A stretch of 64,000 bases of DNA, from contig SCTI01000002.1 in NCBI GenBank assembly GCA_004297735.1, forward strand, positions 160 through 64,159, written 5' to 3'. The notes beneath the pieces are model-generated. The model worked only from the letters and a program-made list of their open reading frames with translations. It was not told the DNA's origin and made no database searches. The position numbers and the translations under genes were made by a program. Shown here in pieces: positions 39,286 to 62,782 of the stretch (its first letter is position 1; every line of letters starts with the position of its first letter). The stretch is from Patescibacteria group bacterium (GTDB lineage: Bacteria; Patescibacteriota; Saccharimonadia; UBA4664; SCTI01).

Positions 39286-39413
39286 AAATTGTCTCCTTAG
39301 TCTTTGCTTCAGGCGACCGCTGAGTTTTAGGTTCGGCGGAGGATTGATGCCTGAGCTGTAACGTTAATCAATGCAACTTGGTTAGAATACCAGATTTGAG
39401 AGGTTTGGGCAAG

Positions 39414-39989
39414 CTATTGAGCCGGCCGCACCCACATTCGTTCAACCCAACCATTTCTGGGTTCTTCAAACGTATCATCGGTTGAATTAAATCCAAGCTT
39501 TTTGAGGATTTTTACGCTTGGAGCATTACTATCTTCACAAAATGCCACGAACTCTGTTATCTCCATACTAGTCTGAGCCATCTGCATTAAGGCTTGAATT
39601 GAAGCGGTAACGAGGCCCCTGCCCCTCATCGAAGGGTCGAGAAAATAACCAAAACCGATCACGGTTGGGTTGGGCGTTCCGGACATGTAGCCATTGTCCT
39701 GCCATAAGTTGACCCAACCCACCATATTATCTTGCTGCACAAGGGTGTAGCGAAGGATATCAGGCTTACTTTGGCCTCTCCTAATCTCATTGACCACATC
39801 TGCCTCGTTGAGCATTTTGGAGGCCACAGTGACACGGTCGCGTATGCTCGGATCAGCCTCGAGTATTTCAATAGTCCTTTTAGCATCAGATTCCTGTACT
39901 AACCTCAGGTAGACATCATCTTGCACTTGGACTTTTTGTAGTGCCGGAATTTGGTGTAAGTCTCTTGCAATATTTTTTGGCTTTGTCAT
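39414..39989 (-). CDS. GNAT family N-acetyltransferase
   Basis: 191 aa; acetyl-CoA binding motif RGRGLVTASIQALM. Confidence 0.65.
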   Translation of the reverse strand: MTKPKNIARDLHQIPALQKVQVQDDVYLRLVQESDAKRTIEILEADPSIRDRVTVASKMLNEADVVNEIRRGQSKPDILRYTLVQQDNMVGWVNLWQDNGYMSGTPNPTVIGFGYFLDPSMRGRGLVTASIQALMQMAQTSMEITEFVAFCEDSNAPSVKILKKLGFNSTDDTFEEPRNGWVERMWVRPAQ

Positions 39990-40080
39990 ACCAAAACTAT
40001 ACTATAAATTTTTGAGATCAGAATTCGTTAATATTAGTTGTTTACGATAAATAGGCCTGGTGGATACGGTCTCACGACGA

Positions 40081-40152
40081 GGGGCCGAGCTGGTGCTATA
40101 CTTTGGCTTCGTCACCCGCTGTATTGGGGTTCGATTCCCCATAGCTCCACCA
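40081..40152 (+). ncRNA. 72-nt tRNA-Ala/tmRNA-TLD-like mini-RNA; no anticodon/D arms recognisable
   Basis: Acceptor 5' GGGGCCG pairs with 3' TAGCTCC via G3:U70; 37-nt body; T-arm TGGGG-TTCGATT-CCCCA; discriminator A + encoded CCA; 3' end CATAGCTCCACCA identical to tRNA-Ala/tmRNA ends; terminator 13 nt downstream. Confidence 0.5.
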
Positions 40153-40164
40153 GGTTAATAAACA

Positions 40165-40193
40165 AAAATAGCCGCCCGGAGCGGCTATTTTTG
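40165..40193. terminator. Bidirectional intrinsic terminator (AAAAATAGCCGC-ccgga-GCGGCTATTTTT)
   Basis: Perfect 12-nt arms including A/T tracts immediately after the mini-RNA. Confidence 0.7.
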
Positions 40194-40317
40194 TAGTCAG
40201 TGTTGTCGGGCCAGTGCCACAGCTCCACCAGATACATTCGATACCTTTGTATCGATTTGATTGTAGCGCATTCTACTCCTTGACGCCATCCCCTTTTTCA
40301 GGTAAGATGGTCGAGTT

Positions 40318-52222: not shown

Positions 52223-52467
52223 TAAGTTCTATTATACGCGGTAAGCCGGGTCAACAAAATCTACCAAGACCCTGGTGGAACTGTTGGGGCGCCTCTCTAA
52301 CCCAGATTCTGGCAGATAGCAGTTTTACACGCTATTTGCAGGGTGGGCATTTGACTATCGGATGGCGCTTTGCGCATGCTGAAGACCCACCGATCGGTGG
52401 GTCCCGAGGTCCACTGGCAAGGGGACGCGGGGCAACGTACTACAACCCCGCAAAGGAGGTGGAGTAC

Positions 52468-52653
52468 ATGGGAAAGCCAAAGTTCGACACCCAGTCGAAC
52501 AACTCGAATGCGTGGGTCGGTGTCCGCGAAGGTCAGGACAGATCATCCGGCAAGACGCATACCGAGATCATCGTGCATGACAAGAGCAACAACGATCACG
52601 CTCACGTCGGCATCGATAAGAGCGGCAATCAGATATATCGCCGTGATCGCTAA
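52468..52653 (+). CDS. Hypothetical small polar protein (61 aa)
   Basis: SD AAAGGAGGTG 7 nt before ATG (MGKPKFDTQSNNS...); GC hairpin after stop. Confidence 0.45.
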   Translation: MGKPKFDTQSNNSNAWVGVREGQDRSSGKTHTEIIVHDKSNNDHAHVGIDKSGNQIYRRDR

Positions 52654-52699
52654 ATAGCGACACCGAGGCCCTTCCGGCCTCGGGCCGGGAGGGCCTCAT

Positions 52700-53026
52700 C
52701 TATACGCGGCGCGTCAGGCCATCCTCGCGAGCTACTCCCTCACCGAACGCCGATGCAATCGCGCTGTAGCGCGCGAGGAGCACCAGAGCGTTCGCAATCT
52801 CGCCATGCTCAGCCGGTACGAGAAACTCTCGCATCCACGCTGAGTTCGGAGTCGCAGCCATTATGTCCGCGAGCACAGCAGCCTCTTCGGGATCTGCTGC
52901 CGCCCAACGATCACGAATCAGCTTCGAAGCTTGATCGATCGATCGGTCATCGAAGTCGTCCTCGTCGAAGCGACGGCGCATTTCATCGCGCAGCTCGACC
53001 AAGTCTTGTAATTCACTGTTACCCAT
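52700..53026 (-). CDS. Hypothetical acidic protein (108 aa), islet cargo
   Basis: ORF with G/C-rich third positions; divergent from recombinase gene. Confidence 0.45.
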   Translation of the reverse strand: MGNSELQDLVELRDEMRRRFDEDDFDDRSIDQASKLIRDRWAAADPEEAAVLADIMAATPNSAWMREFLVPAEHGEIANALVLLARYSAIASAFGEGVAREDGLTRRV

Positions 53027-53268
53027 GGCTTTATTGTCGAACAGGCCAGCGACTCATGCAAGCACGAGCGTGTCCAATCGCCCGTCCGATCGCGTCAGAG
53101 TGCTCGCTCCTGAACTTCCCGCATTCAGGCGCTTTCCGCTCGATTAAGGCCTAGGACTATCTAGGGCCCTTTGCCCTCCCTTACTACAAACGCCTCCAGA
53201 TCTGGCAAAATACGTATTGGCTTAACTACTGATACGAGCTAAGATCCTTAACGAAAGGAGGTGCACAT

Positions 53269-55002
53269 ATGAGTGAAAGTGATAAAACTGTGACTCTCGC
53301 TCAAGCGCCCAAGAAGGCGCTGGTGTATCTCCGTGTGTCCTCGGCCCAGCAGGCCGAGACCGACTACGACGTTGAGGGCTTCTCGATCCCAGCTCAGCGC
53401 GAGGCCTGCAGGCGCCGTGCCGCGGAGCTAGAAGCTGAGGTCGAAGCAGACTTCGTCGATCGCGGCGAGTCGGCCAGAAGCGCTGACCGCCCAGCCCTGC
53501 AACGGATGCTGGCCAGGCTTGAAGCCGGCGGCATCGATTACGTCATCGTCCACAAGCTGGATCGACTGGCGCGTAACCGGGCCGACGACGTCGAGATCGC
53601 GATGCGGATCAAGGCAGGCGGTGCGGTGCTGGTCTCCGTCACCGAGAACATCGATGAGACGCCATCCGGGATGTTGGTTCACGGAATCATGTCCTCGATC
53701 GCCGAGTTCTATAGCCGCAACCTGGCCTCAGAGATCGTCAAAGGCTCCCGGCAGAAGGCCAAGAACGGCGGCACGCTGACCCGGGCGCCCATTGGGTACC
53801 TGAACGTGCGCGAGTTCGTAGATGGCCGCGAGATCCGCACTATCGGTATCGACGAGGAACGAGCGCCGTACGTGCAGCTGGCGTTCGAGCTCTACGCCAC
53901 CGGCAACTACTCGCTGTCGCAGCTCTCCACGCTGCTCGAACACCAGGGGCTGCGTTCCCGGGCTACTCGCCGGCGGCCGAGCGTCCCGGTCACGGCCAGC
54001 AAGCTTCAGGCGATTCTGCGCAACCCGTACTACAAGGGCATCGTCTCCTACCAAGGCGAGAGCTTCCCCGGTCGGCATCAGCCGCTCGTTGACGACGATC
54101 TGTTTGAGCGAGTCGGCCAAGTCCTCTCCGGCAAGAAGCTCAGTGGCGAGCGGGACCGCAAGCACCGTCACTACCTCAAGGGCTCGCTCTACTGCGGCGA
54201 GTGCGGCCGCCGTCTGACGTTCAGTCGCAACACCGGCAATGGTGGCTCCTACGACTACTTCGTCTGCAGTGGCAAGCAGCGCAAGACCTGCAGCCAGGGA
54301 TATCTGCGCACCGATCACATCGAGGCTGAGGTCGAGAAGCTCTACGCGACAGTCCAGCTGACGACCAAGCAGCGCGCAGAGATCCGCCGCCTGGTTGAGA
54401 CACACCTCGATGCCATGCGGGCGGTGACCGACGCCGAAGCCAACAAAGCCACGGCTGAGATCACAAAGCTGCTGCGCGAAGAACGCAAGCTGCTTGAGCT
54501 GTACTACGCAGACCTCGTGAGCCGCGAGGCCTACGCCGAAGAGACCAAGCGGATTGCCGACGGCAAGCGGGCCGCCCAGCGACGTATTGACGAAGCTTCA
54601 GGAACTACACAGGAGCTACTCGAGGCACTCAACCGTGCGCTGGAGATGACAACCAACGCGCACAAGACCTACCTGATGTCCGACTTCACCGGACGCCGCC
54701 TAATGAACCAAATGTTCTTCAAGCGGATCGAGGTCAAGGCCGACGAGATCGATGACGTCAAGCTCTCCGACCCCTACGCCCAGCTACTGGCCCAGGACCT
54801 GCTGGCAGAAGCCGAGGAAGCCGCCAGAGAGGCCGCCGCTACCGGCGTCTGGGAGGCCCCGGAACTTCAGGCCGAACCGGCCACAGGGCCCGGAAACCAA
54901 AGAACCCTCGGCCTTTCTTTGGCCGAGGGTTCCATTAGTACTGCTGTCATGGAGCTGTGGGGATTCGAACCCCAAGCACGAAGATTATCGGTCCTTTGCT
55001 AG
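53269..55002 (+). CDS. Large serine recombinase (resolvase/invertase N-domain + recombinase domain + zinc ribbon + coiled coil)
   Basis: LVYLRVSSAQQ catalytic-Ser motif; CGECGRRL...C..C zinc ribbon; 577 aa; last about 17 codons read into the tRNA-like target sequence; SD AAAGGAGGTG. Confidence 0.85.
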   Translation: MSESDKTVTLAQAPKKALVYLRVSSAQQAETDYDVEGFSIPAQREACRRRAAELEAEVEADFVDRGESARSADRPALQRMLARLEAGGIDYVIVHKLDRLARNRADDVEIAMRIKAGGAVLVSVTENIDETPSGMLVHGIMSSIAEFYSRNLASEIVKGSRQKAKNGGTLTRAPIGYLNVREFVDGREIRTIGIDEERAPYVQLAFELYATGNYSLSQLSTLLEHQGLRSRATRRRPSVPVTASKLQAILRNPYYKGIVSYQGESFPGRHQPLVDDDLFERVGQVLSGKKLSGERDRKHRHYLKGSLYCGECGRRLTFSRNTGNGGSYDYFVCSGKQRKTCSQGYLRTDHIEAEVEKLYATVQLTTKQRAEIRRLVETHLDAMRAVTDAEANKATAEITKLLREERKLLELYYADLVSREAYAEETKRIADGKRAAQRRIDEASGTTQELLEALNRALEMTTNAHKTYLMSDFTGRRLMNQMFFKRIEVKADEIDDVKLSDPYAQLLAQDLLAEAEEAAREAAATGVWEAPELQAEPATGPGNQRTLGLSLAEGSISTAVMELWGFEPQARRLSVLC

Positions 55003-55016
55003 ACCAACTCAGCCCC
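54950..55016 (-). ncRNA. Truncated tRNA-Ala/tmRNA-TLD-like mini-gene (paralog of 40081-40152), 3' CCA region replaced by islet
   Basis: minus sense GGGGCTG-AGTTGGTCTAGCAAAGGACCGATAATCTTCGTGCT-TGGGG-TTCGAAT-CCCCA-CAGCTCC-A; G3:U70; body and T-arm homologous to the 40.08-kb copy. Confidence 0.45.
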
Positions 55017-55144
55017 GCGTAAAAGCCATTGCTACCACCAAGGCATTTACAGTATTTCAAACAGTTATTAACAAAAAATTATCGATTTGACATGGAATGC
55101 AAAAATGTTAATCTATATCTGTACGAGGATTATCGGTCCTACCT

Positions 55145-55173
55145 AAAAAACCGGCCATCATGGCCGGTTTTTT
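55145..55173. terminator. Bidirectional intrinsic terminator (AAAAAACCGGCCA-tca-TGGCCGGTTTTTT)
   Basis: 3' of ileS on minus strand and 3' of islet on plus strand. Confidence 0.75.
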
Positions 55174-55185
55174 AGTGCCTATTTT

Positions 55186-59764: not shown

Positions 59765-62700
59765 CTAGCTGCAGCCGGCGGTGCTGCCACAGCTATTGCA
59801 GACGGGGCAAGGCCCACCCTTGCGAACCATCAAGCCACCGCAATCGGAACAGATGCCCGCCACGGACAGGCCGAGGTAGGTAAGCGGCTGCTCCGCAGGC
59901 GAATCCGGCTTGCTACCGTCACCGGTTGTCGAAACAGCAAGCTCCTGCTGAGCTGCCTCCGCGTACTCGACCGGAGTCGACCCACCGGCATCCTCAGCCA
60001 TCTTGCGCTTGCGCACCTCAGGCGTCAAGATGCCGAGCTCCTCCTGGACATCCGTATCCAGGAAGCGGCTGGCCAGCCAGCGCATGATGTAGTCCGGCAG
60101 ACTCTTGGCGAACGGGATCTCGATGTTCTCGGTGATCCCTTCCGGCTCGAATCGCACGAAGCTGAACTTCTCCACCAGCGTCTCAAGCGGCACCCCGTAC
60201 TGGAGCGCGATCGAGATCGCCGTGGCGAAGGAGTTCATCATGCCCTTGAGCGCTGAGCCTTCCTTGCCGAGACCGTTGATGAAGATCTCTCCCATCGTCC
60301 CGTCCTCGTACATACCGGCCACAATGTAGCCTTCGTGACCTCCGAGGACGAACTTGTGAGTGATCGACTTGCGCTCCCGCGGCATCCTCCGGCGAGCCGG
60401 TGTGCCGCGAGCGATCTCGACGAGGATCAGGGTGATCATCTCCGACTCGTCCGCCGTCAGGACCTTGCGGTCACCAATGAGGGACTCGTAGAGATCGCCG
60501 ACTGCCTTGAGTGTGGGCACGCCCTTGATCAGGGCATGCTCGAACACCTCGCACAAGGCCTCGACCGCCGCGCGCTGGATCGGCTCGCCGAGCTCAACGC
60601 CCGACTCGCCCTTACCCATCTGCGCGTCCGTGCGCAGCGCCTGGGCGGTCTTGGACCCATCGCGGTAGATGGCCAGAGCCTTGACGCCGAGGCGCCAGGC
60701 CTGGGTGTACGCGTCAGCGATGTCCTCGACGGTGGTCTCCTGCGGCATGTTGACCGTCTTGGAGATCGCACCGCTGATGAACGGCTGAACCGCACCCATC
60801 ATCTTGATGTGGCCCATGTGGCTGATCGCCCGCTCGCCGACCGCGACATCGAACACCGGCAGGTGCTTCGGGTCGAGACCCGGAGCGCCGATGATCGTGC
60901 CGTGCTCGGTGATGTACTCCTCGATGACCTCGATCTTCTGGTCGTTGTACCCGAGGGTACGCAGAGCCAGCGGAACCGTCCGGTTAGGGATGGTCATCTG
61001 ACCGCCACCAACCAGCTCCTTGAACTTGACCAGCGAGAAGTCCGGCTCGACGCCGGTGGTGTCGCAGTCCATCAGGAACGAGATCGTCCCCGTCGGTGCG
61101 AGCACCGTGGCCTGCGCGTTGCGGTAGCCGTGCTGCTCGCCGAGCGTGACCGCCTGATGCCAGGCAAGGCGCGCCTCGGCCAGCAGATCCATGTCACGAA
61201 TGTGACCATCCGGGATCTGCTGTGCGGCGTCATGGTGCATCCGCATCACCTTGTTGTGCGGCTCGCGGTTATCGGCGTACCTGTCGTACGGACCGATGGC
61301 CGCCGCGATCTTGGCCGACTGAGCGTAAGCCCGACCGGTCATGAGCGCGGTGATGGCCGCCGCCGTTGCCCGACCCTTGTCGGAGTCGTACGGCATGCCG
61401 TTGGCCATCAGGTAGGCACCGAGGTTGGCGTACCCCAGGCCGAGCTGACGGAACGCTCGCGCGTTATCACCGATCTCCTCCGTCGGGTAGGACGAAGGGC
61501 CAACGATGATCTCCTGCGCCAGGAACACGATGTCCACCGCTTGCTTGAAGCGCTCGGTGTCGAACGTGCCATCCTCACGCCGGAACTTCATCAGGTTCAG
61601 CGAGGCCAGGTTGCAGGCCGAGTCATCGACATGCATGTACTCGCTGCACGGGTTCGAGGCGTTGATGCGCCCCGAGTTCGGATCGGTGTGCCACTGGTTG
61701 ATGGTGGTGTCGTACTGCACGCCAGGGTCGGCACAGCGCCAGGCCGCCTCCGCGATGTCTCGCATCAGGTCCCGAGCCGGAATCGGATCGCCGACCGGAT
61801 CCCCGGTCTTGCGAGCGATCAGGTGCCAGTCCTCGTCGTTCTCGACCGCCTGCATGAACTCGTCCGACACGCGGACCGAGTTGTTGGCGTTCTGGTACTG
61901 AACGTGCCTGAAGCCGCGACCGTCGATGGACATGTCGAAGCCCTTTTCCTGCAGAGCCCCGGCCACCTCTTCGGCCTCGACCTTACACCAGATGAACTCC
62001 CGGATGTCCGGGTGGTCCACGTCCAGCACTACCATCTTGGCCGCCCGACGTGTCTTGCCGCCGGACTTGATGGTGCCGGCCCAGGAGTCGGCGCCACGCA
62101 TGAACGACACCGGTCCGCTGGCCGTGCCGCCCTTGCTCAGCGGCTCCATCGAACCGCGGATCGCCGACAGGTTGATGCCGGAACCGGAGCCGCCGCGGAA
62201 GATCTTACCCTCCCGCGTGTTCCAGTCCAGGATCGAATCCATCGTGTCCTCGACACTCAGGATGAAGCAGGCCGAGCACTGCGGGTTCTCTTCGAACCCG
62301 ACGTTGAACCAGACCGGGCTGTTGAAAGCCGCCGCCTGGTCCAGCAGCAGGAAGAGCAGCTCGTCGTAGAAGATCGAGGCCGGGTGATCGGGCTCCTGCT
62401 CACGCAGAACCTCGATCTTCCCCCGCCCAGGACCGAAGTAGCCCCTGGCCATACCCCACTGGGTGATGGTCTTGGCAACCCGGCCGGTCATCTGCCTGAC
62501 CGAGCGCTCACGCGTCGGTGAGCCCAGCTGTCCGCGGAAGTACTTCTGCGCCACGATGTTGGTGGCGTTCTGGCTCCACAACTTCGGGAACTCGACGTCC
62601 TTCTGCTCGAACGCGACCTTGTCGCCGTGACCGATGCGCGCGTCACGGGTCTCCCAGTCGACGGTGTCGAACGGGTGCACGCCCTCCTTGGTGAAGTAGC

Positions 62701-62782
62701 GCGTGATCTTGAGAGGCTTGCTAGCTACGCCGTTATGGGGCGCCGCCAGCGTCTGCTGACCTTCGGTTTCGGTCGATGCCAT
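59765..62782 (-). CDS. nrdJ: Ribonucleoside-diphosphate/triphosphate reductase class II (adenosylcobalamin-dependent), high-G+C xenolog
   Basis: 1005 aa; class II RNR core; C-terminal Cys-rich zinc ribbon CSDCGGLMVRKGGPCPVCNSCGSTAGCS; G/C-rich third positions unlike adjacent nrdR. Confidence 0.85.
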   Translation of the reverse strand: MASTETEGQQTLAAPHNGVASKPLKITRYFTKEGVHPFDTVDWETRDARIGHGDKVAFEQKDVEFPKLWSQNATNIVAQKYFRGQLGSPTRERSVRQMTGRVAKTITQWGMARGYFGPGRGKIEVLREQEPDHPASIFYDELLFLLLDQAAAFNSPVWFNVGFEENPQCSACFILSVEDTMDSILDWNTREGKIFRGGSGSGINLSAIRGSMEPLSKGGTASGPVSFMRGADSWAGTIKSGGKTRRAAKMVVLDVDHPDIREFIWCKVEAEEVAGALQEKGFDMSIDGRGFRHVQYQNANNSVRVSDEFMQAVENDEDWHLIARKTGDPVGDPIPARDLMRDIAEAAWRCADPGVQYDTTINQWHTDPNSGRINASNPCSEYMHVDDSACNLASLNLMKFRREDGTFDTERFKQAVDIVFLAQEIIVGPSSYPTEEIGDNARAFRQLGLGYANLGAYLMANGMPYDSDKGRATAAAITALMTGRAYAQSAKIAAAIGPYDRYADNREPHNKVMRMHHDAAQQIPDGHIRDMDLLAEARLAWHQAVTLGEQHGYRNAQATVLAPTGTISFLMDCDTTGVEPDFSLVKFKELVGGGQMTIPNRTVPLALRTLGYNDQKIEVIEEYITEHGTIIGAPGLDPKHLPVFDVAVGERAISHMGHIKMMGAVQPFISGAISKTVNMPQETTVEDIADAYTQAWRLGVKALAIYRDGSKTAQALRTDAQMGKGESGVELGEPIQRAAVEALCEVFEHALIKGVPTLKAVGDLYESLIGDRKVLTADESEMITLILVEIARGTPARRRMPRERKSITHKFVLGGHEGYIVAGMYEDGTMGEIFINGLGKEGSALKGMMNSFATAISIALQYGVPLETLVEKFSFVRFEPEGITENIEIPFAKSLPDYIMRWLASRFLDTDVQEELGILTPEVRKRKMAEDAGGSTPVEYAEAAQQELAVSTTGDGSKPDSPAEQPLTYLGLSVAGICSDCGGLMVRKGGPCPVCNSCGSTAGCS

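What the first reader, a model, noticed from the sequence alone, without database searches (positions are those of the whole stretch)
40056..40230. 72-nt TLD-only mini-RNA (tRNA-Ala/tmRNA-like without anticodon arm) with duplicated 3'-end cores and inverted CCTGGTGGA flanks
40081-40152 has a 7-bp acceptor stem with G3:U70 (the alanine identity pair), a T-arm TGGGG-TTCGATT-CCCCA, discriminator A and an encoded CCA. The 3' end CATAGCTCCACCA matches tRNA-Ala and tmRNA termini, and an intrinsic terminator follows 13 nt later. Only 37 nt lie between acceptor and T-arm, and I could not fold D or anticodon arms. Its 5' GGGGCCGAGCUGG resembles tmRNA 5' ends (GGGGCUGAUUCUGG). The locus therefore looks like a tmRNA tRNA-like domain without the mRNA-like domain, or a severely reduced tRNA-Ala. 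A second CACAGCTCCACCAG core lies 85 nt downstream at 40218-40230. CCTGGTGGA (40056-40064) and its reverse complement TCCACCAGG (40146-40154) bracket the gene, and the same 9-mer marks the left edge of the 52-kb islet. A homologous copy is the integration target at 54950-55016. The locus appears to be both a possible aminoacylatable small RNA and a recombination hotspot.
Basis: seen in the sequence. Interest (0 to 1): 0.7.

Follow-up and report, generated by a model that had tools for sequence, protein, structure and literature searches.

The report
Anticodon-less tmRNA-like small RNA gene
The 72-base gene is real: it looks like the top half of an alanine tRNA (the tRNA-like end of tmRNA) with no anticodon arm and no tag-coding part, it has a better-kept twin 15 kb away that a small mobile element has hit, and in these tiny bacteria this little-known RNA family comes with its own antisense RNA.

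Summary
Window 40081-40152(+) ("A") is a tRNA-like gene: acceptor stem with G3:U70, 37 nt instead of D and anticodon arms, a canonical T-arm, A73, an encoded CCA and a terminator. Its stem is imperfect (C6.A67, G7.U66). ARAGORN and Rfam at gathering score find nothing.

A paralog "B" lies at 55016-54950(-). B has syntenic orthologs in three related Saccharimonadales contigs. One intact ortholog aligns end to end with Rfam tmRNA, interior deleted (38.4 bits, below the 47-bit cut-off).

Fifteen family members share a covarying fold: acceptor, about 11-nt linker, one irregular hairpin abutting the T-arm.

A 2.67-kb serine-recombinase islet sits exactly at B's CCA end; relatives keep the empty site. 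The repeated 3' core after A looks like an older att scar.

The "inverted flanks" are a leader-trailer helix that covaries between orthologs.

New: in eight Patescibacteria loci (not A's ortholog) a separately promoted small RNA begins with 12-20 nt complementary to the hairpin and co-evolves with it.

A is the more decayed copy. Verdict: a new variant of the rare CDS-less (TLD-only) tmRNA-like RNAs. Charging with alanine, SmpB binding and expression are all untested.

The parts
40081..40152 (+). Mini tRNA-like (TLD-type) RNA gene A. Acceptor 5' strand 40081-40087; linker plus irregular hairpin 40088-40124 (stem 40098-40106 with 40116-40124, loop 40107-40115); T-arm 40125-40141; acceptor 3' strand 40142-40148; discriminator A 40149; CCA 40150-40152.
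   Evidence: Sequence. Family covariance model R1 gives 67.8 bits. Ortholog in L126:2264-2335. C6.A67 mismatch and G7.U66 wobble read directly from the sequence.
40056..40064 (+). Leader segment CCUGGUGGA, complementary to the 3' end plus trailer UCCACCAGG (40146-40154). Predicted leader-trailer helix of the primary transcript.
   Evidence: precursor fold z = -3.4. Duplex test: -21.4 kcal/mol against -8.0 +/- 2.2, 0 of 300 shuffles. The same helix with different sequences is present in L133, L131, L130, L054 and L056.
40164..40192 (+). Intrinsic terminator of gene A (AAAAAUAGCCGC-CCGGA-GCGGCUAUUUUU).
   Evidence: fold of 40081-40195, z = -3.0. The G+C core of the stem is the same in L126, one outer pair covaries (U:A to C:G) and the loop differs.
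40218..40230 (+). Second copy of the 3'-end core (CACAGCTCCACCA), followed by a weak hairpin at 40238-40255. Read as the displaced original 3' end (att scar).
   Evidence: L126 has the same arrangement, and both of its cores carry GTTCC instead of GCTCC.
39976..39988 (-). 5' end of the GNAT mRNA (AUGACAAAGCCAAA...), complementary in 12 of 13 positions to the hairpin of A (40102-40114). A possible but weak counterpart of the antisense partner seen at B.
   Evidence: score 10.5; 0 of 200 local shuffles. Equal scores occur elsewhere in the 64-kb window, and there is no counterpart in L126.
54950..55016 (-). Mini tRNA-like RNA gene B, a paralog of A. Perfect 7-bp acceptor stem with G3:U70; hairpin region 55000-54975; T-arm 54974-54958; discriminator A at 54950. 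The encoded CCA has been removed by the islet insertion.
   Evidence: z = -2.95; Rfam tRNA 27.3 against cut-off 29; mascRNA 28.6; 75.3 bits. Syntenic orthologs L133:5292-5361, L131:7105-7174 and L130:5240-5309.
55035..55044 (-). Leader segment GCCUUGGUGG of B. It pairs with CCACCAGGG(UC), which is now displaced to 52279-52271.
   Evidence: reconstructed empty site -20.7 kcal/mol, 1 of 300 shuffles. Covariation: L133 GCAAUGGUGG/CCACCAUUGC, L131 GCCUUGGUGG/CCACCAAGGC, L130 GCACUUGGUG/CACCAAGUGC.
55121..55178 (+). Predicted antisense small RNA, partner of B. The first 20 nt, GUACGAGGAUUAUCGGUCCU (55121-55140), pair with B at 54995-54976. It ends at the bidirectional ileS terminator (55143-55175).
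   Evidence: score 15.5 against a window background of 10.5 or less; 0 of 200 shuffles. The pair co-evolves in L133, L131 and L130.
55087..55114 (+). Promoter-like site for the partner small RNA: TTGACA (55087-55092), 16 nt, TAATCT (55109-55114). The -10 hexamer ends 6 nt before the seed.
   Evidence: Read. Not called by the strict scan in the window. The homologous sites are called by the tool in L131, L007, L056 and L054. TTGAC is invariant in alignment A2.
52280..54949 (.). 2.67-kb integrated islet bounded by the shared core TGGA (52276-52279 and 54950-54953). It carries two small ORFs and the recombinase, and supplies a terminator (54933-54901, minus strand) behind the truncated gene B.
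   Evidence: Homology to the relatives' empty site resumes exactly at CCACCA.
53269..55002 (+). Large serine recombinase gene (Resolvase, Recombinase and Zn_ribbon_recom domains). Its last 17 codons and stop lie beyond the junction, antisense to gene B.
52271..52279 (-). Displaced 3' end and trailer of B (UCCACCAGG read on the minus strand), at the far junction of the islet.

Best explanation
A is a chromosomal gene, possibly a decaying one, for a roughly 70-nt tRNA-like RNA of the tmRNA-TLD type that has no coding part.

Shown:
- Its architecture is acceptor stem with G3:U70 and A73, about 11 unpaired nt containing GG, one irregular hairpin that abuts the T-stem, a T-arm, and CCA.
- This architecture is shared, with covariation, by paralog B, their orthologs and nine other bacterial sequences.
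- A leader about 17 nt upstream of G1 pairs with the CCA end and trailer, and this helix covaries.
- B's CCA end is the attachment site of a serine-recombinase islet.
- A carries a duplicated 3' core.

Inferred:
- The transcript is cut by RNase P at G1 and trimmed to CCA.
- AlaRS charges it, because G3:U70 and A73 suffice for that enzyme.
- Like the TLD-only RNA of phage DS6A, it binds SmpB and EF-Tu but cannot supply a reading frame. It would therefore compete with, or tune, trans-translation rather than perform it.
- In B and in other Patescibacteria, the amount or fold of the RNA is set by a dedicated small RNA. The 5' end of that RNA pairs with the hairpin that stands where the anticodon arm would be.
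- A has lost a clear partner and has picked up stem defects.
For: Anatomy.

Family fold: RNAalifold finds 19 pairs, 11 of them with compensatory changes. In the pair count, 95.4% of cells are paired against 47-59% when partners are slid. The covariation score is 0.52 against 0.05-0.18, and 0 of 500 shuffles reach it.

Covariance model R1 separates members (43-84 bits) from true tRNAs (19-31 bits).

Homology to tmRNA: L133 aligns to RF00023 over positions 1-374 at 38.4 bits, E = 3.9e-14.

Orthologs: L126 for A (including an A:U to G:C change at the hairpin's closing pair). L133, L131 and L130 for B, with the acceptor stem, linker and T-arm identical in the window, L133 and L131 while the hairpin diverges.

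Leader-trailer helix.

Islet at the CCA end, with empty sites in relatives.

Partner small RNA.

Precedent: CDS-less tmRNA forms exist, and the DS6A form inhibits tmRNA in E. coli (PMC4131195, PMC11915505). Patescibacteria usually carry a standard tmRNA as well (5252 in 6765 genomes).
Against: - No expression, processing or charging data exist.
- A has a C6.A67 mismatch and its fold is no better than shuffles.
- A is 80% identical to its L126 ortholog against 86% for the whole intergenic alignment, so there is no sign of purifying selection on A.
- A is absent from the closest relative sampled (L125, L31 90% identical) and from L127 and L128.
- B is absent from L134, L135 and L136 and deleted in L132. 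The genes are therefore dispensable.
- The tmRNA and tRNA models stay below their cut-offs.
- Family members outside this clade were found with a pattern that fixed positions 1-5, the 3' strand and the T-loop. G3:U70 conservation in them is therefore by ascertainment.
- I could not check that this genome has ssrA and smpB.
Confidence: 0.5

Rival explanations
1. A is a dead relic: a pseudogene or att-site debris left by integrative elements that carry a mimic of the TLD 3' end. It has no present function. Only B-type genes are functional.
For: - Derived C6 and U66 weaken the stem, whereas B-type genes and L126 have U6:A67 and G7:C66.
- A diverges as fast as its flanks.
- A is missing in L125.
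- A has no clear antisense partner.
- The duplicated core and the variable cargo between rpsB and rpmE show repeated rearrangement at this site.
- The islet's own attP half (CCCCAACAGTTCCA) mimics the gene's 3' end.
Against: - A keeps G3:U70, A73, CCA, a perfect T-arm, the leader-trailer helix and a strong terminator.
- The whole unit is retained in L126, with a compensatory change in the hairpin and a better stem.
- A has a complete 5' strand, which att debris would lack.
Confidence: 0.25
2. The RNA is never trimmed to a tRNA-like end. The leader-trailer helix persists, and the roughly 110-nt panhandle with an internal tRNA-like module acts as a protein scaffold or decoy, in the manner of bacterial Y-RNA-like YrlA. 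It is not aminoacylated.
For: - The leader-trailer helix of 8-18 bp covaries and includes the CCA.
- In minimum-energy folds of the precursors this helix wins over the acceptor stem.
- L056 has CCC instead of CCA.
Against: - CCA sits exactly after A73 in nine of ten Patescibacteria members.
- G1 lies in an RNase P-type context.
- There is no Rfam YrlA or Y RNA match.
- No conserved protein neighbour was found.
- The helix is absent in L007 and L026.
Confidence: 0.1
3. It is a reduced tRNA-Ala kept as an alanine donor for a non-ribosomal reaction (for example cell-wall cross-bridge or lipid aminoacylation). It is excluded from decoding because it lacks an anticodon arm.
For: G3:U70 and A73 suffice for AlaRS (established knowledge). 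B lies next to ftsW, with sortase genes nearby.
Against: - No Fem/MurM-type or aminoacyl-lipid synthase gene is linked to it.
- Distribution is patchy even among close relatives.
- A8 and the end-to-end tmRNA-model alignment point to a TLD rather than a tRNA.
Confidence: 0.06
4. The mini RNA and its partner small RNA together form a new two-piece tmRNA. The partner's 5' end replaces the hairpin's 5' strand, like helix P2, and its downstream part supplies a minimal message or a stop codon.
For: - The topology fits. The partner pairs with the loop and 3' strand, so its remainder emerges where PK1 and the message lie in tmRNA.
- UAA follows the seed within 1-8 codons in all partners.
- Two-residue tags are known (PMC11915505).
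Against: - In the window and its orthologs only about 9 nt separate the seed from the terminator hairpin. That is too short to reach the decoding centre.
- The UAA there is part of the palindromic terminator.
- No conserved frame or tag exists.
- Stop codons are expected by chance in A+T-rich RNA.
- Patescibacteria normally have a standard tmRNA.
Confidence: 0.04

Closest known systems
tRNA-like domain (TLD) of tmRNA (ssrA; Rfam RF00023)
   Same: GGGGCUGA... 5' end with A8. G3:U70, A73 and CCA. No D-stem and no anticodon arm. One helix leaves after a GG-containing loop and returns next to the T-arm. The gene's 3' end is used as an integration site. An intact ortholog aligns end to end with the model.
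   Different: No message, resume codon, stop codon or pseudoknots; 37 nt instead of about 300. It lacks the UUCGAC and GGAC motifs that flank P2. Scores are below the gathering cut-off and ARAGORN does not call it.
CDS-less (TLD-only) tmRNA homologs: mycobacteriophage DS6A, jakobid and oomycete mitochondria, Mallomonadaceae plastids, Patescibacteria genus 9FT-COMBO-53-11 (PMC4131195, PMC11915505)
   Same: About 65-80 nt, TLD only, no tag frame. One reported case is in the same phylum. The DS6A form inhibits tmRNA in E. coli.
   Different: I could not compare sequences with those entries. The phage-type TLD-only RNAs I found (73-80 nt, UUCGAC...GGAC, inner UAAAGCC-loop-GGAA hairpin) form a different subfamily. 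No antisense partner or leader-trailer helix has been described for any of them, as far as my literature searches show.
tRNA-Ala
   Same: G3:U70, A73, the CAUAGCUCCACCA 3' end, and the T-arm.
   Different: No cloverleaf. A8 (G8 in L130) instead of U8. No anticodon. Rfam tRNA scores 27.3 bits for B (cut-off 29) and nothing for A. ARAGORN is negative.
Antisense RNA pairs with private, fast-evolving specificity (plasmid CopA/CopT and RNAI/RNAII, type I toxin-antitoxin RNAs)
   Same: A short RNA with its own promoter and terminator. Complementarity is centred on a hairpin loop of the target. The two sequences change together between close relatives.
   Different: The target is a tRNA-like RNA, not an mRNA or a replication primer. 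No toxin peptide or replicon is involved. The partner gene may be divergent, upstream or downstream.
tRNA and tmRNA genes as attachment sites of integrative elements
   Same: The islet is inserted at the 3' end of B. The element's attP half resembles the gene's 3' end. A repeated 3' core lies beside A.
   Different: The recombinase is a large serine recombinase and the crossover lies within TGGA at the CCA. The insertion therefore removes the CCA instead of restoring the gene.
mascRNA / MEN-beta tRNA-like RNAs and bacterial YrlA
   Same: Small tRNA-like folds without decoding function. The mascRNA model gives the best weak Rfam hit for A (22.7 bits) and B (28.6 bits).
   Different: mascRNA is a eukaryotic family and the match is generic acceptor plus T-arm. 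There is no YrlA hit and no Ro60 gene nearby.

Membership tests
tmRNA (standard ssrA) | tRNA-like domain: acceptor stem with G3:U70, T-arm, no anticodon arm | tested here: met
   A has one mismatch (C6.A67). B and the orthologs are perfect.
tmRNA (standard ssrA) | mRNA-like domain with resume codon, tag reading frame and stop codon | tested here: not met
   Only 35-37 nt lie between the acceptor stem and the T-arm. ARAGORN finds no tag.
tmRNA (standard ssrA) | Pseudoknots PK1-PK4 and long helix P2 | tested here: not met
   A single irregular hairpin of 6-9 pairs.
tmRNA (standard ssrA) | Rfam RF00023 score at or above the gathering cut-off (47 bits) | tested here: not met
   L133 ortholog 38.4 bits. 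L126 partial match at 20.5 bits. The window has none at gathering score.
CDS-less / TLD-only tmRNA homologs | About 65-80 nt RNA consisting of the TLD alone, closer to tmRNA than to tRNA | tested here: inconclusive
   End-to-end tmRNA-model alignment for L133 (E = 3.9e-14). For B, however, the tRNA model is the best hit within the clan (27.3 bits). A matches only through its 3' half.
CDS-less / TLD-only tmRNA homologs | Alanylation by AlaRS and binding of SmpB | not testable with these tools
   Needs biochemistry. The presence of smpB and ssrA in this genome was not checked, because only 64 kb are available.
canonical tRNA-Ala | Cloverleaf with D-arm and anticodon arm bearing an alanine anticodon; U8 | tested here: not met
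   ARAGORN finds none. Rfam tRNA is below cut-off. A8 is read from the sequence.
integration site (attB) of a serine-recombinase element | Recombinase gene at the junction, insertion absent from relatives, and flanks that rejoin into an intact site | tested here: met
   Met for B. The large serine recombinase has Resolvase, Recombinase and Zn_ribbon_recom domains. L133 and L130 have the uninterrupted gene followed by the ftsW promoter. Homology resumes at CCACCA at 52279.
integration site (attB) of a serine-recombinase element | The same for locus A | tested here: inconclusive
   There is only a duplicated 13-nt core 66 nt downstream, conserved and co-varying in L126. No recombinase is present and no empty-site comparison was possible.
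antisense RNA pair | Separate promoter and terminator, complementarity above chance, and co-variation between orthologs | tested here: met
   Met for B and seven other Patescibacteria loci. Transcription itself was not shown.
antisense RNA pair | The same for locus A | tested here: inconclusive
   A 12-of-13 match to the 5' end of the GNAT mRNA. The score equals the window-wide background and there is none in L126.
type I toxin-antitoxin | Small toxic peptide encoded by the target RNA | tested here: not met
   No conserved ORF in either RNA. The 27-codon ORF over the window partner starts upstream of the predicted start site and is not conserved in L133 (read).

The most novel reading that the evidence does not exclude
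The mini RNA and its antisense small RNA form an RNA-only toxin-antitoxin or abortive-infection module.

The alanine-accepting TLD mimic would block trans-translation by soaking up SmpB, EF-Tu or stalled ribosomes. The short, privately matched antisense RNA would keep it unfolded or degraded. Loss of the antisense RNA, by phage attack or loss of the locus, would free the inhibitor.

This reading would explain four things: the fast co-evolution of hairpin and seed, the patchy distribution, the position in integration hotspots, and the phage-borne TLD-only relatives.
Probability: 0.2. Interest if true: 0.85.

Novelty: new variant of a known kind. Interest (0 to 1): 0.64.

Why it matters
The 2025 tmRNA database lists only nine "standard, no CDS" tmRNA sequences, and nobody knows what they do in cells.

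This work adds three things:
- A chromosomal family that ARAGORN and the Rfam cut-offs miss. It now has a covariation-supported fold and a working covariance model.
- A clear case of such a gene serving as the landing site of a minimal serine-recombinase element.
- A dedicated, co-evolving antisense RNA, seen in at least three named Patescibacteria groups plus one unclassified member. This implies that the cell must control the RNA.

Together these make the question [quoted passage not shown] testable. A two-gene construct of about 300 bp would be enough for the test.

The work also warns annotators that such genes and their att scars sit unannotated beside core translation genes.

Tried and rejected
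- ARAGORN and Rfam at gathering score on the whole window found nothing.
- The narrow pattern GGGGCYGAGYTGGT... gave 0 hits in viral contigs and 2 in metagenomes. The close subfamily is therefore rare or too divergent for exact patterns.
- Conserved protein neighbours: clustering of flanking ORFs gave only IS-type transposase or HTH genes in a few non-Patescibacteria loci. It gave unrelated housekeeping genes in Patescibacteria loci. No protein partner emerged.
- Split-tmRNA idea: the partners have no conserved frame or tag, and the window partner is only a seed plus a terminator.
- Small protein in the partner: the 27-codon ORF is not conserved.
- Direct repeats as att duplication: rejected. 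No gene 5' half precedes the upstream copy. In L007 and L056 the copy is inverted, on the same strand, and has its own promoter.
- Upstream similarity between A and B is too weak for a local alignment; only the T-arm and 3' strand align.
- Relatives of the serine recombinase in viral contigs: none.
- BLAST of the B-type ortholog (L133 sequence) against 50,697 phage records: no match. A phage-type TLD-only query hit only the T-arm of an annotated, full-length tmRNA in crAss-like phage cr10_1.
- Literature searches found no description of this family or its partner.
Full report
**1. What is at the coordinates**

- GGGGCCG at 40081-40087.
- 37 nt at 40088-40124.
- T-arm UGGGG-UUCGAUU-CCCCA at 40125-40141.
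- UAGCUCC at 40142-40148, A at 40149, CCA at 40150-40152.
- An A-tract/G+C hairpin/U-tract terminator at 40164-40192.
- A second CACAGCTCCACCA at 40218-40230.
- CCTGGTGGA at 40056-40064, facing its complement at 40146-40154.

Both short motifs are over-represented in the window. They occur 3 times against 0.14 expected and 4 times against 0.40 expected, and no shuffle of 100 reaches the observed counts.

One correction is needed. The stem has five good pairs including G3:U70, then a C6.A67 mismatch and a G7.U66 wobble. The isolated 72-mer folds no better than shuffles (z = -0.37).

ARAGORN finds no tRNA or tmRNA anywhere in the 64 kb. Rfam finds nothing at gathering score. With relaxed thresholds only the T-arm and 3' strand of A touch the permuted-tmRNA models, and the generic mascRNA model gives 22.7 bits.

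**2. A second, better copy**

On the minus strand at 55016-54950 lies this sequence:
GGGGCUGAGUUGGUCUAGCAAAGGACCGAUAAUCUUCGUGCUUGGGGUUCGAAUCCCCACAGCUCCA

It has a perfect 7-bp stem with G3:U70 and folds well (z = -2.95). It scores 27.3 bits on Rfam tRNA (cut-off 29) and 28.6 bits on mascRNA. I call the two genes A and B. A covariance model built later finds only these two in the window, at 67.8 and 75.3 bits.

**3. Organism and orthologs**

The L31 protein next to A is identical to one from a Patescibacteria MAG, and its relatives are Saccharimonadales.

Loci around L31 homologs show the following:
- The interval between rpsB and rpmE holds different cargo in every genome. The window has a GNAT gene. 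L126 has a HAD gene plus a small ORF. L125 has a 359-residue ORF. L127 has a 938-residue ORF. L128 has three small ORFs.
- L126 (L31 83% identical) has an ortholog of A with its leader, terminator and second core.
- L125 (90% identical), L127 and L128 have none.

Compared with L126, A is 80% identical, while the whole intergenic alignment is 86% identical. A is therefore not visibly under purifying selection. B-type genes and L126 carry U6:A67 and G7:C66, so the two stem defects of A are derived. The hairpin's closing pair changes from A:U to G:C between A and L126.

Loci around ileS homologs show B-type genes in the same place, between ileS and ftsW, in L133, L131 and L130. The gene has been deleted in L132, and there is no room for it in L134, L135 and L136.

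In the window, L133 and L131 the acceptor stem, linker and T-arm are identical, while the hairpin differs strongly.

The intact L133 gene aligns to the Rfam tmRNA model from position 1 to 374 with the 308-nt interior skipped. The score is 38.4 bits with E = 3.9e-14, still below the 47-bit cut-off.

**4. A family with a supported fold**

A degenerate pattern scan of species-representative genomes returned 61 loci. Besides real tRNA-Ala genes and actinobacterial tRNA-Ala-like repeats, they include two groups:
- 67-72-nt sequences like A and B, from Peribacteria, Doudnabacteria, other Patescibacteria, Pseudomonadota and Acidobacteria.
- 77-80-nt TLD-only forms with the tmRNA motifs UUCGAC and GGAC.

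The second group also fills viral contigs, with 60 stretches returned. It often sits in tRNA arrays.

Fifteen sequences of the first group align to one structure: acceptor stem, about 11 unpaired nt containing GG, an irregular hairpin that abuts the T-stem, and the T-arm. In the pair count, 95.4% of cells are paired against 47-59% for slid partners. The covariation score is 0.52 against 0.05-0.18, and no shuffle of 500 reaches it.

Positions 1-5, the 3' strand and the T-loop were fixed by the search pattern in the non-syntenic members, so their constancy there says nothing. The hairpin helix was not constrained, and all five of its outer pairs show compensatory changes.

The covariance model scores non-training members at 43-55 bits (L002 at 37.8) and true tRNAs at 19-31 bits.

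**5. The inverted 9-mers are an RNA helix**

In every Saccharimonadales copy a leader segment about 17 nt upstream of G1 is complementary to the CCA end plus trailer, and the sequences differ while the pairing is kept:

| Locus | Leader | 3' end plus trailer |
|---|---|---|
| A | CCUGGUGGA | UCCACCAGG |
| L133 | GCAAUGGUGG | CCACCAUUGC |
| L131 | GCCUUGGUGG | CCACCAAGGC |
| L130 | GCACUUGGUG | CACCAAGUGC |

L056 has 18 pairs.

Duplex energies beat shuffled leaders in the reconstructed B site, L133, L131, L130, A, L054 and L056 (0-4 of 300) and in L126 (9 of 300). They do not in L007, L026 or the non-Patescibacteria members.

A conserved TGn-type extended -10 element upstream would place the transcription start at this leader (my reading).

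**6. Recombination**

The ORF at 53269-55002 is a large serine recombinase.

Read on B's strand, the gene ends ...CAGCUCCA and is followed by foreign sequence. The missing CCACCAGGG and the ftsW promoter reappear at 52279 and below. L133 and L130 have the uninterrupted site.

The two junctions share TGGA (52276-52279 and 54950-54953), which bounds a 2.67-kb islet. The islet's attP half (CCCCAACAGTTCCA) resembles the gene's 3' end.

The insertion removes B's encoded CCA and supplies a terminator. tRNA genes in a related Saccharibacteria contig encode CCA, so B may be impaired.

At A, the second core followed by a weak hairpin looks like the displaced original 3' end. In L126 both cores carry GTTCC, as expected for att cores or gene conversion. 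No recombinase remains there, so this part is inference.

**7. An unexpected partner**

Just after the ileS terminator, 124 nt upstream of B, lies AGGACCGATAATCCTCGT. This is a same-sense copy of B's hairpin loop and 3' strand.

The copy changes together with the hairpin in the orthologs:
- L133: GACTAACAATCTTCG.
- L131: GACTAACACTCTTCGTGT.
- L130: GCTAWATTCACAACCYTAGC.

On the opposite strand a promoter-like site points into the copy, with its -10 hexamer ending 5-7 nt before it. The site reads TTGACA-16-TAATCT in the window. In the orthologs it is TTGACG-16-TACTAT, TTGACC-16-TATTAT and TTGACC-17-TAAAAT. The bidirectional ileS terminator follows.

The predicted product is a roughly 55-nt RNA. 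Its first 20 nt pair with B without a gap, including two G.U pairs.

The same design recurs elsewhere. Each case has a strong promoter call and a terminator or terminator-like hairpin:
- Peribacteria: L026 with 14 of 14 matching positions, and L054 with 12 of 12 (divergent upstream).
- Doudnabacteria: L007 with 19 of 20 (downstream, same strand).
- Another Patescibacteria genome: L056 with 15 of 15 (upstream, same strand).

Shuffle tests give observed scores of 12-18 against 7.5 +/- 1 (0-1 of 200). The six non-Patescibacteria members and L126 show nothing.

For A there is only a 12-of-13 match to the first nucleotides of the apparently leaderless GNAT mRNA. That score is also reached elsewhere in the window, so I treat it as a lead only.

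No conserved protein accompanies the RNA pair, and the partner holds no conserved reading frame.

**8. Comparison with what is known**

CDS-less tmRNA homologs have been reported in four settings: mycobacteriophage DS6A ("TLD only"), jakobid and oomycete mitochondria, two plastids of about 65 bp, and one Patescibacteria genus. The 2025 database holds nine such "standard, no CDS" sequences.

The DS6A form inhibits tmRNA in E. coli, perhaps by titrating SmpB (PMC4131195, PMC11915505).

Patescibacteria genomes usually contain a standard tmRNA (5252 in 6765 genomes). The mini RNA is therefore most likely an addition, not a replacement. This could not be checked for the present genome.

I found no description of an antisense partner or a leader-trailer helix for such RNAs.

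**9. Verdict**

Gene A is the weaker of two paralogs and may be decaying. The family, its fold, the islet insertion and the co-evolving antisense RNA are shown by sequence comparison. Processing, charging with alanine, SmpB binding and any effect on trans-translation are inferred.

The most interesting reading still open is an RNA-only inhibitor/anti-inhibitor module. I rate it at about one chance in five.

Noticed in passing
L063-L122 (IMG/VR contigs), e.g. L064:1927-2005, L099:3578-3657; also L006, L027, L034, L038, L055, L058, L061: A large set of 73-80-nt TLD-only tmRNA-like genes in viral contigs and some bacterial genomes. The usual layout is GGGGCUGAAAUGGUxUCGAC, a helix, a conserved inner hairpin (UAAAGCC-loop-GGAA), GGAC, the T-arm and the acceptor strand. 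They are often embedded in tRNA arrays. ARAGORN does not call them in the bacterial loci tested (the viral loci were not scanned). They are far more numerous than the single phage example (DS6A) cited in the literature I read.
   Followed up: partly
L012:3914-4405, L043:1879-2060, L048:2118-2297, L049:6128-6344 and about 15 other Actinomycetota loci: Multi-copy 76-79-nt tRNA-Ala-like elements (GGGGCGCAGCTGGTAGCGGC...GGGGTTCGAGTCCCCTCAGCTCCA) that lack part of the acceptor 5' strand and D-stem. They occur in tandem with conserved flanks. They could be pseudo-tRNAs or a repeat family.
   Followed up: no
window 53269-55002 (+): The serine recombinase ORF runs across the islet junction. Its last 17 codons and stop come from host DNA antisense to gene B. 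In the excised circle it would instead end after about 15 different codons. The protein's C-terminus therefore depends on the integration state.
   Followed up: partly
L132:5560-5745: In this relative the mini-RNA gene is precisely missing, while its promoter, leader (up to ..CATTGGTGG) and the partner small RNA region remain. The breakpoints coincide with the short repeat TGGTGG/TGGTTG. The partner's terminator has also lost the UAA/A-tract symmetry.
   Followed up: partly
window 39290-40317; L125, L126, L127, L128 equivalent intervals: The rpsB-rpmE interval carries a different cargo gene in each of five related genomes. In the window and in L126, the only two examined for this, the cargo starts as an apparently leaderless mRNA right after a TATAGT -10 element. 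The ileS-ftsW interval is a second such hotspot: L131 has a TatA gene and an 806-residue ORF there.
   Followed up: partly
L022:5824-5984: In a Pseudomonadota MAG a 69-nt family member is followed 6 nt later by a predicted suppressor tRNA (anticodon UUA). This suggests a phage-type tRNA cluster.
   Followed up: no
L035, L124, L047, L022, L123, L014 (hairpin loops): Non-Patescibacteria members have a 7-nt hairpin loop of the form CUNNNCA on a GGG/UCC stem. It is anticodon-loop-like but has C at the position of purine 37. These members lack the antisense partner. The meaning is unknown.
   Followed up: no
window 55020-55033 (-), L131, L133: The leader stretch AAUGGCUUUUACGC immediately 5' of G1 is identical in the window, L131 and L133, although it is not part of the mature tRNA-like fold or of the leader-trailer helix. 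The reason is unknown.
   Followed up: no
window 60001-62000: G+C content rises to 0.64 against about 0.52 for the window, over a 1005-residue ORF (59765-62782, minus strand) with long overlapping ORFs on the other strand. Not examined.
   Followed up: no
L137 (MT774382.1 26352-26737): crAss-like phage cr10_1 carries an annotated 386-nt tmRNA. Its T-arm and acceptor 3' strand lie near the gene's 5' end, as in permuted tmRNA genes.
   Followed up: no
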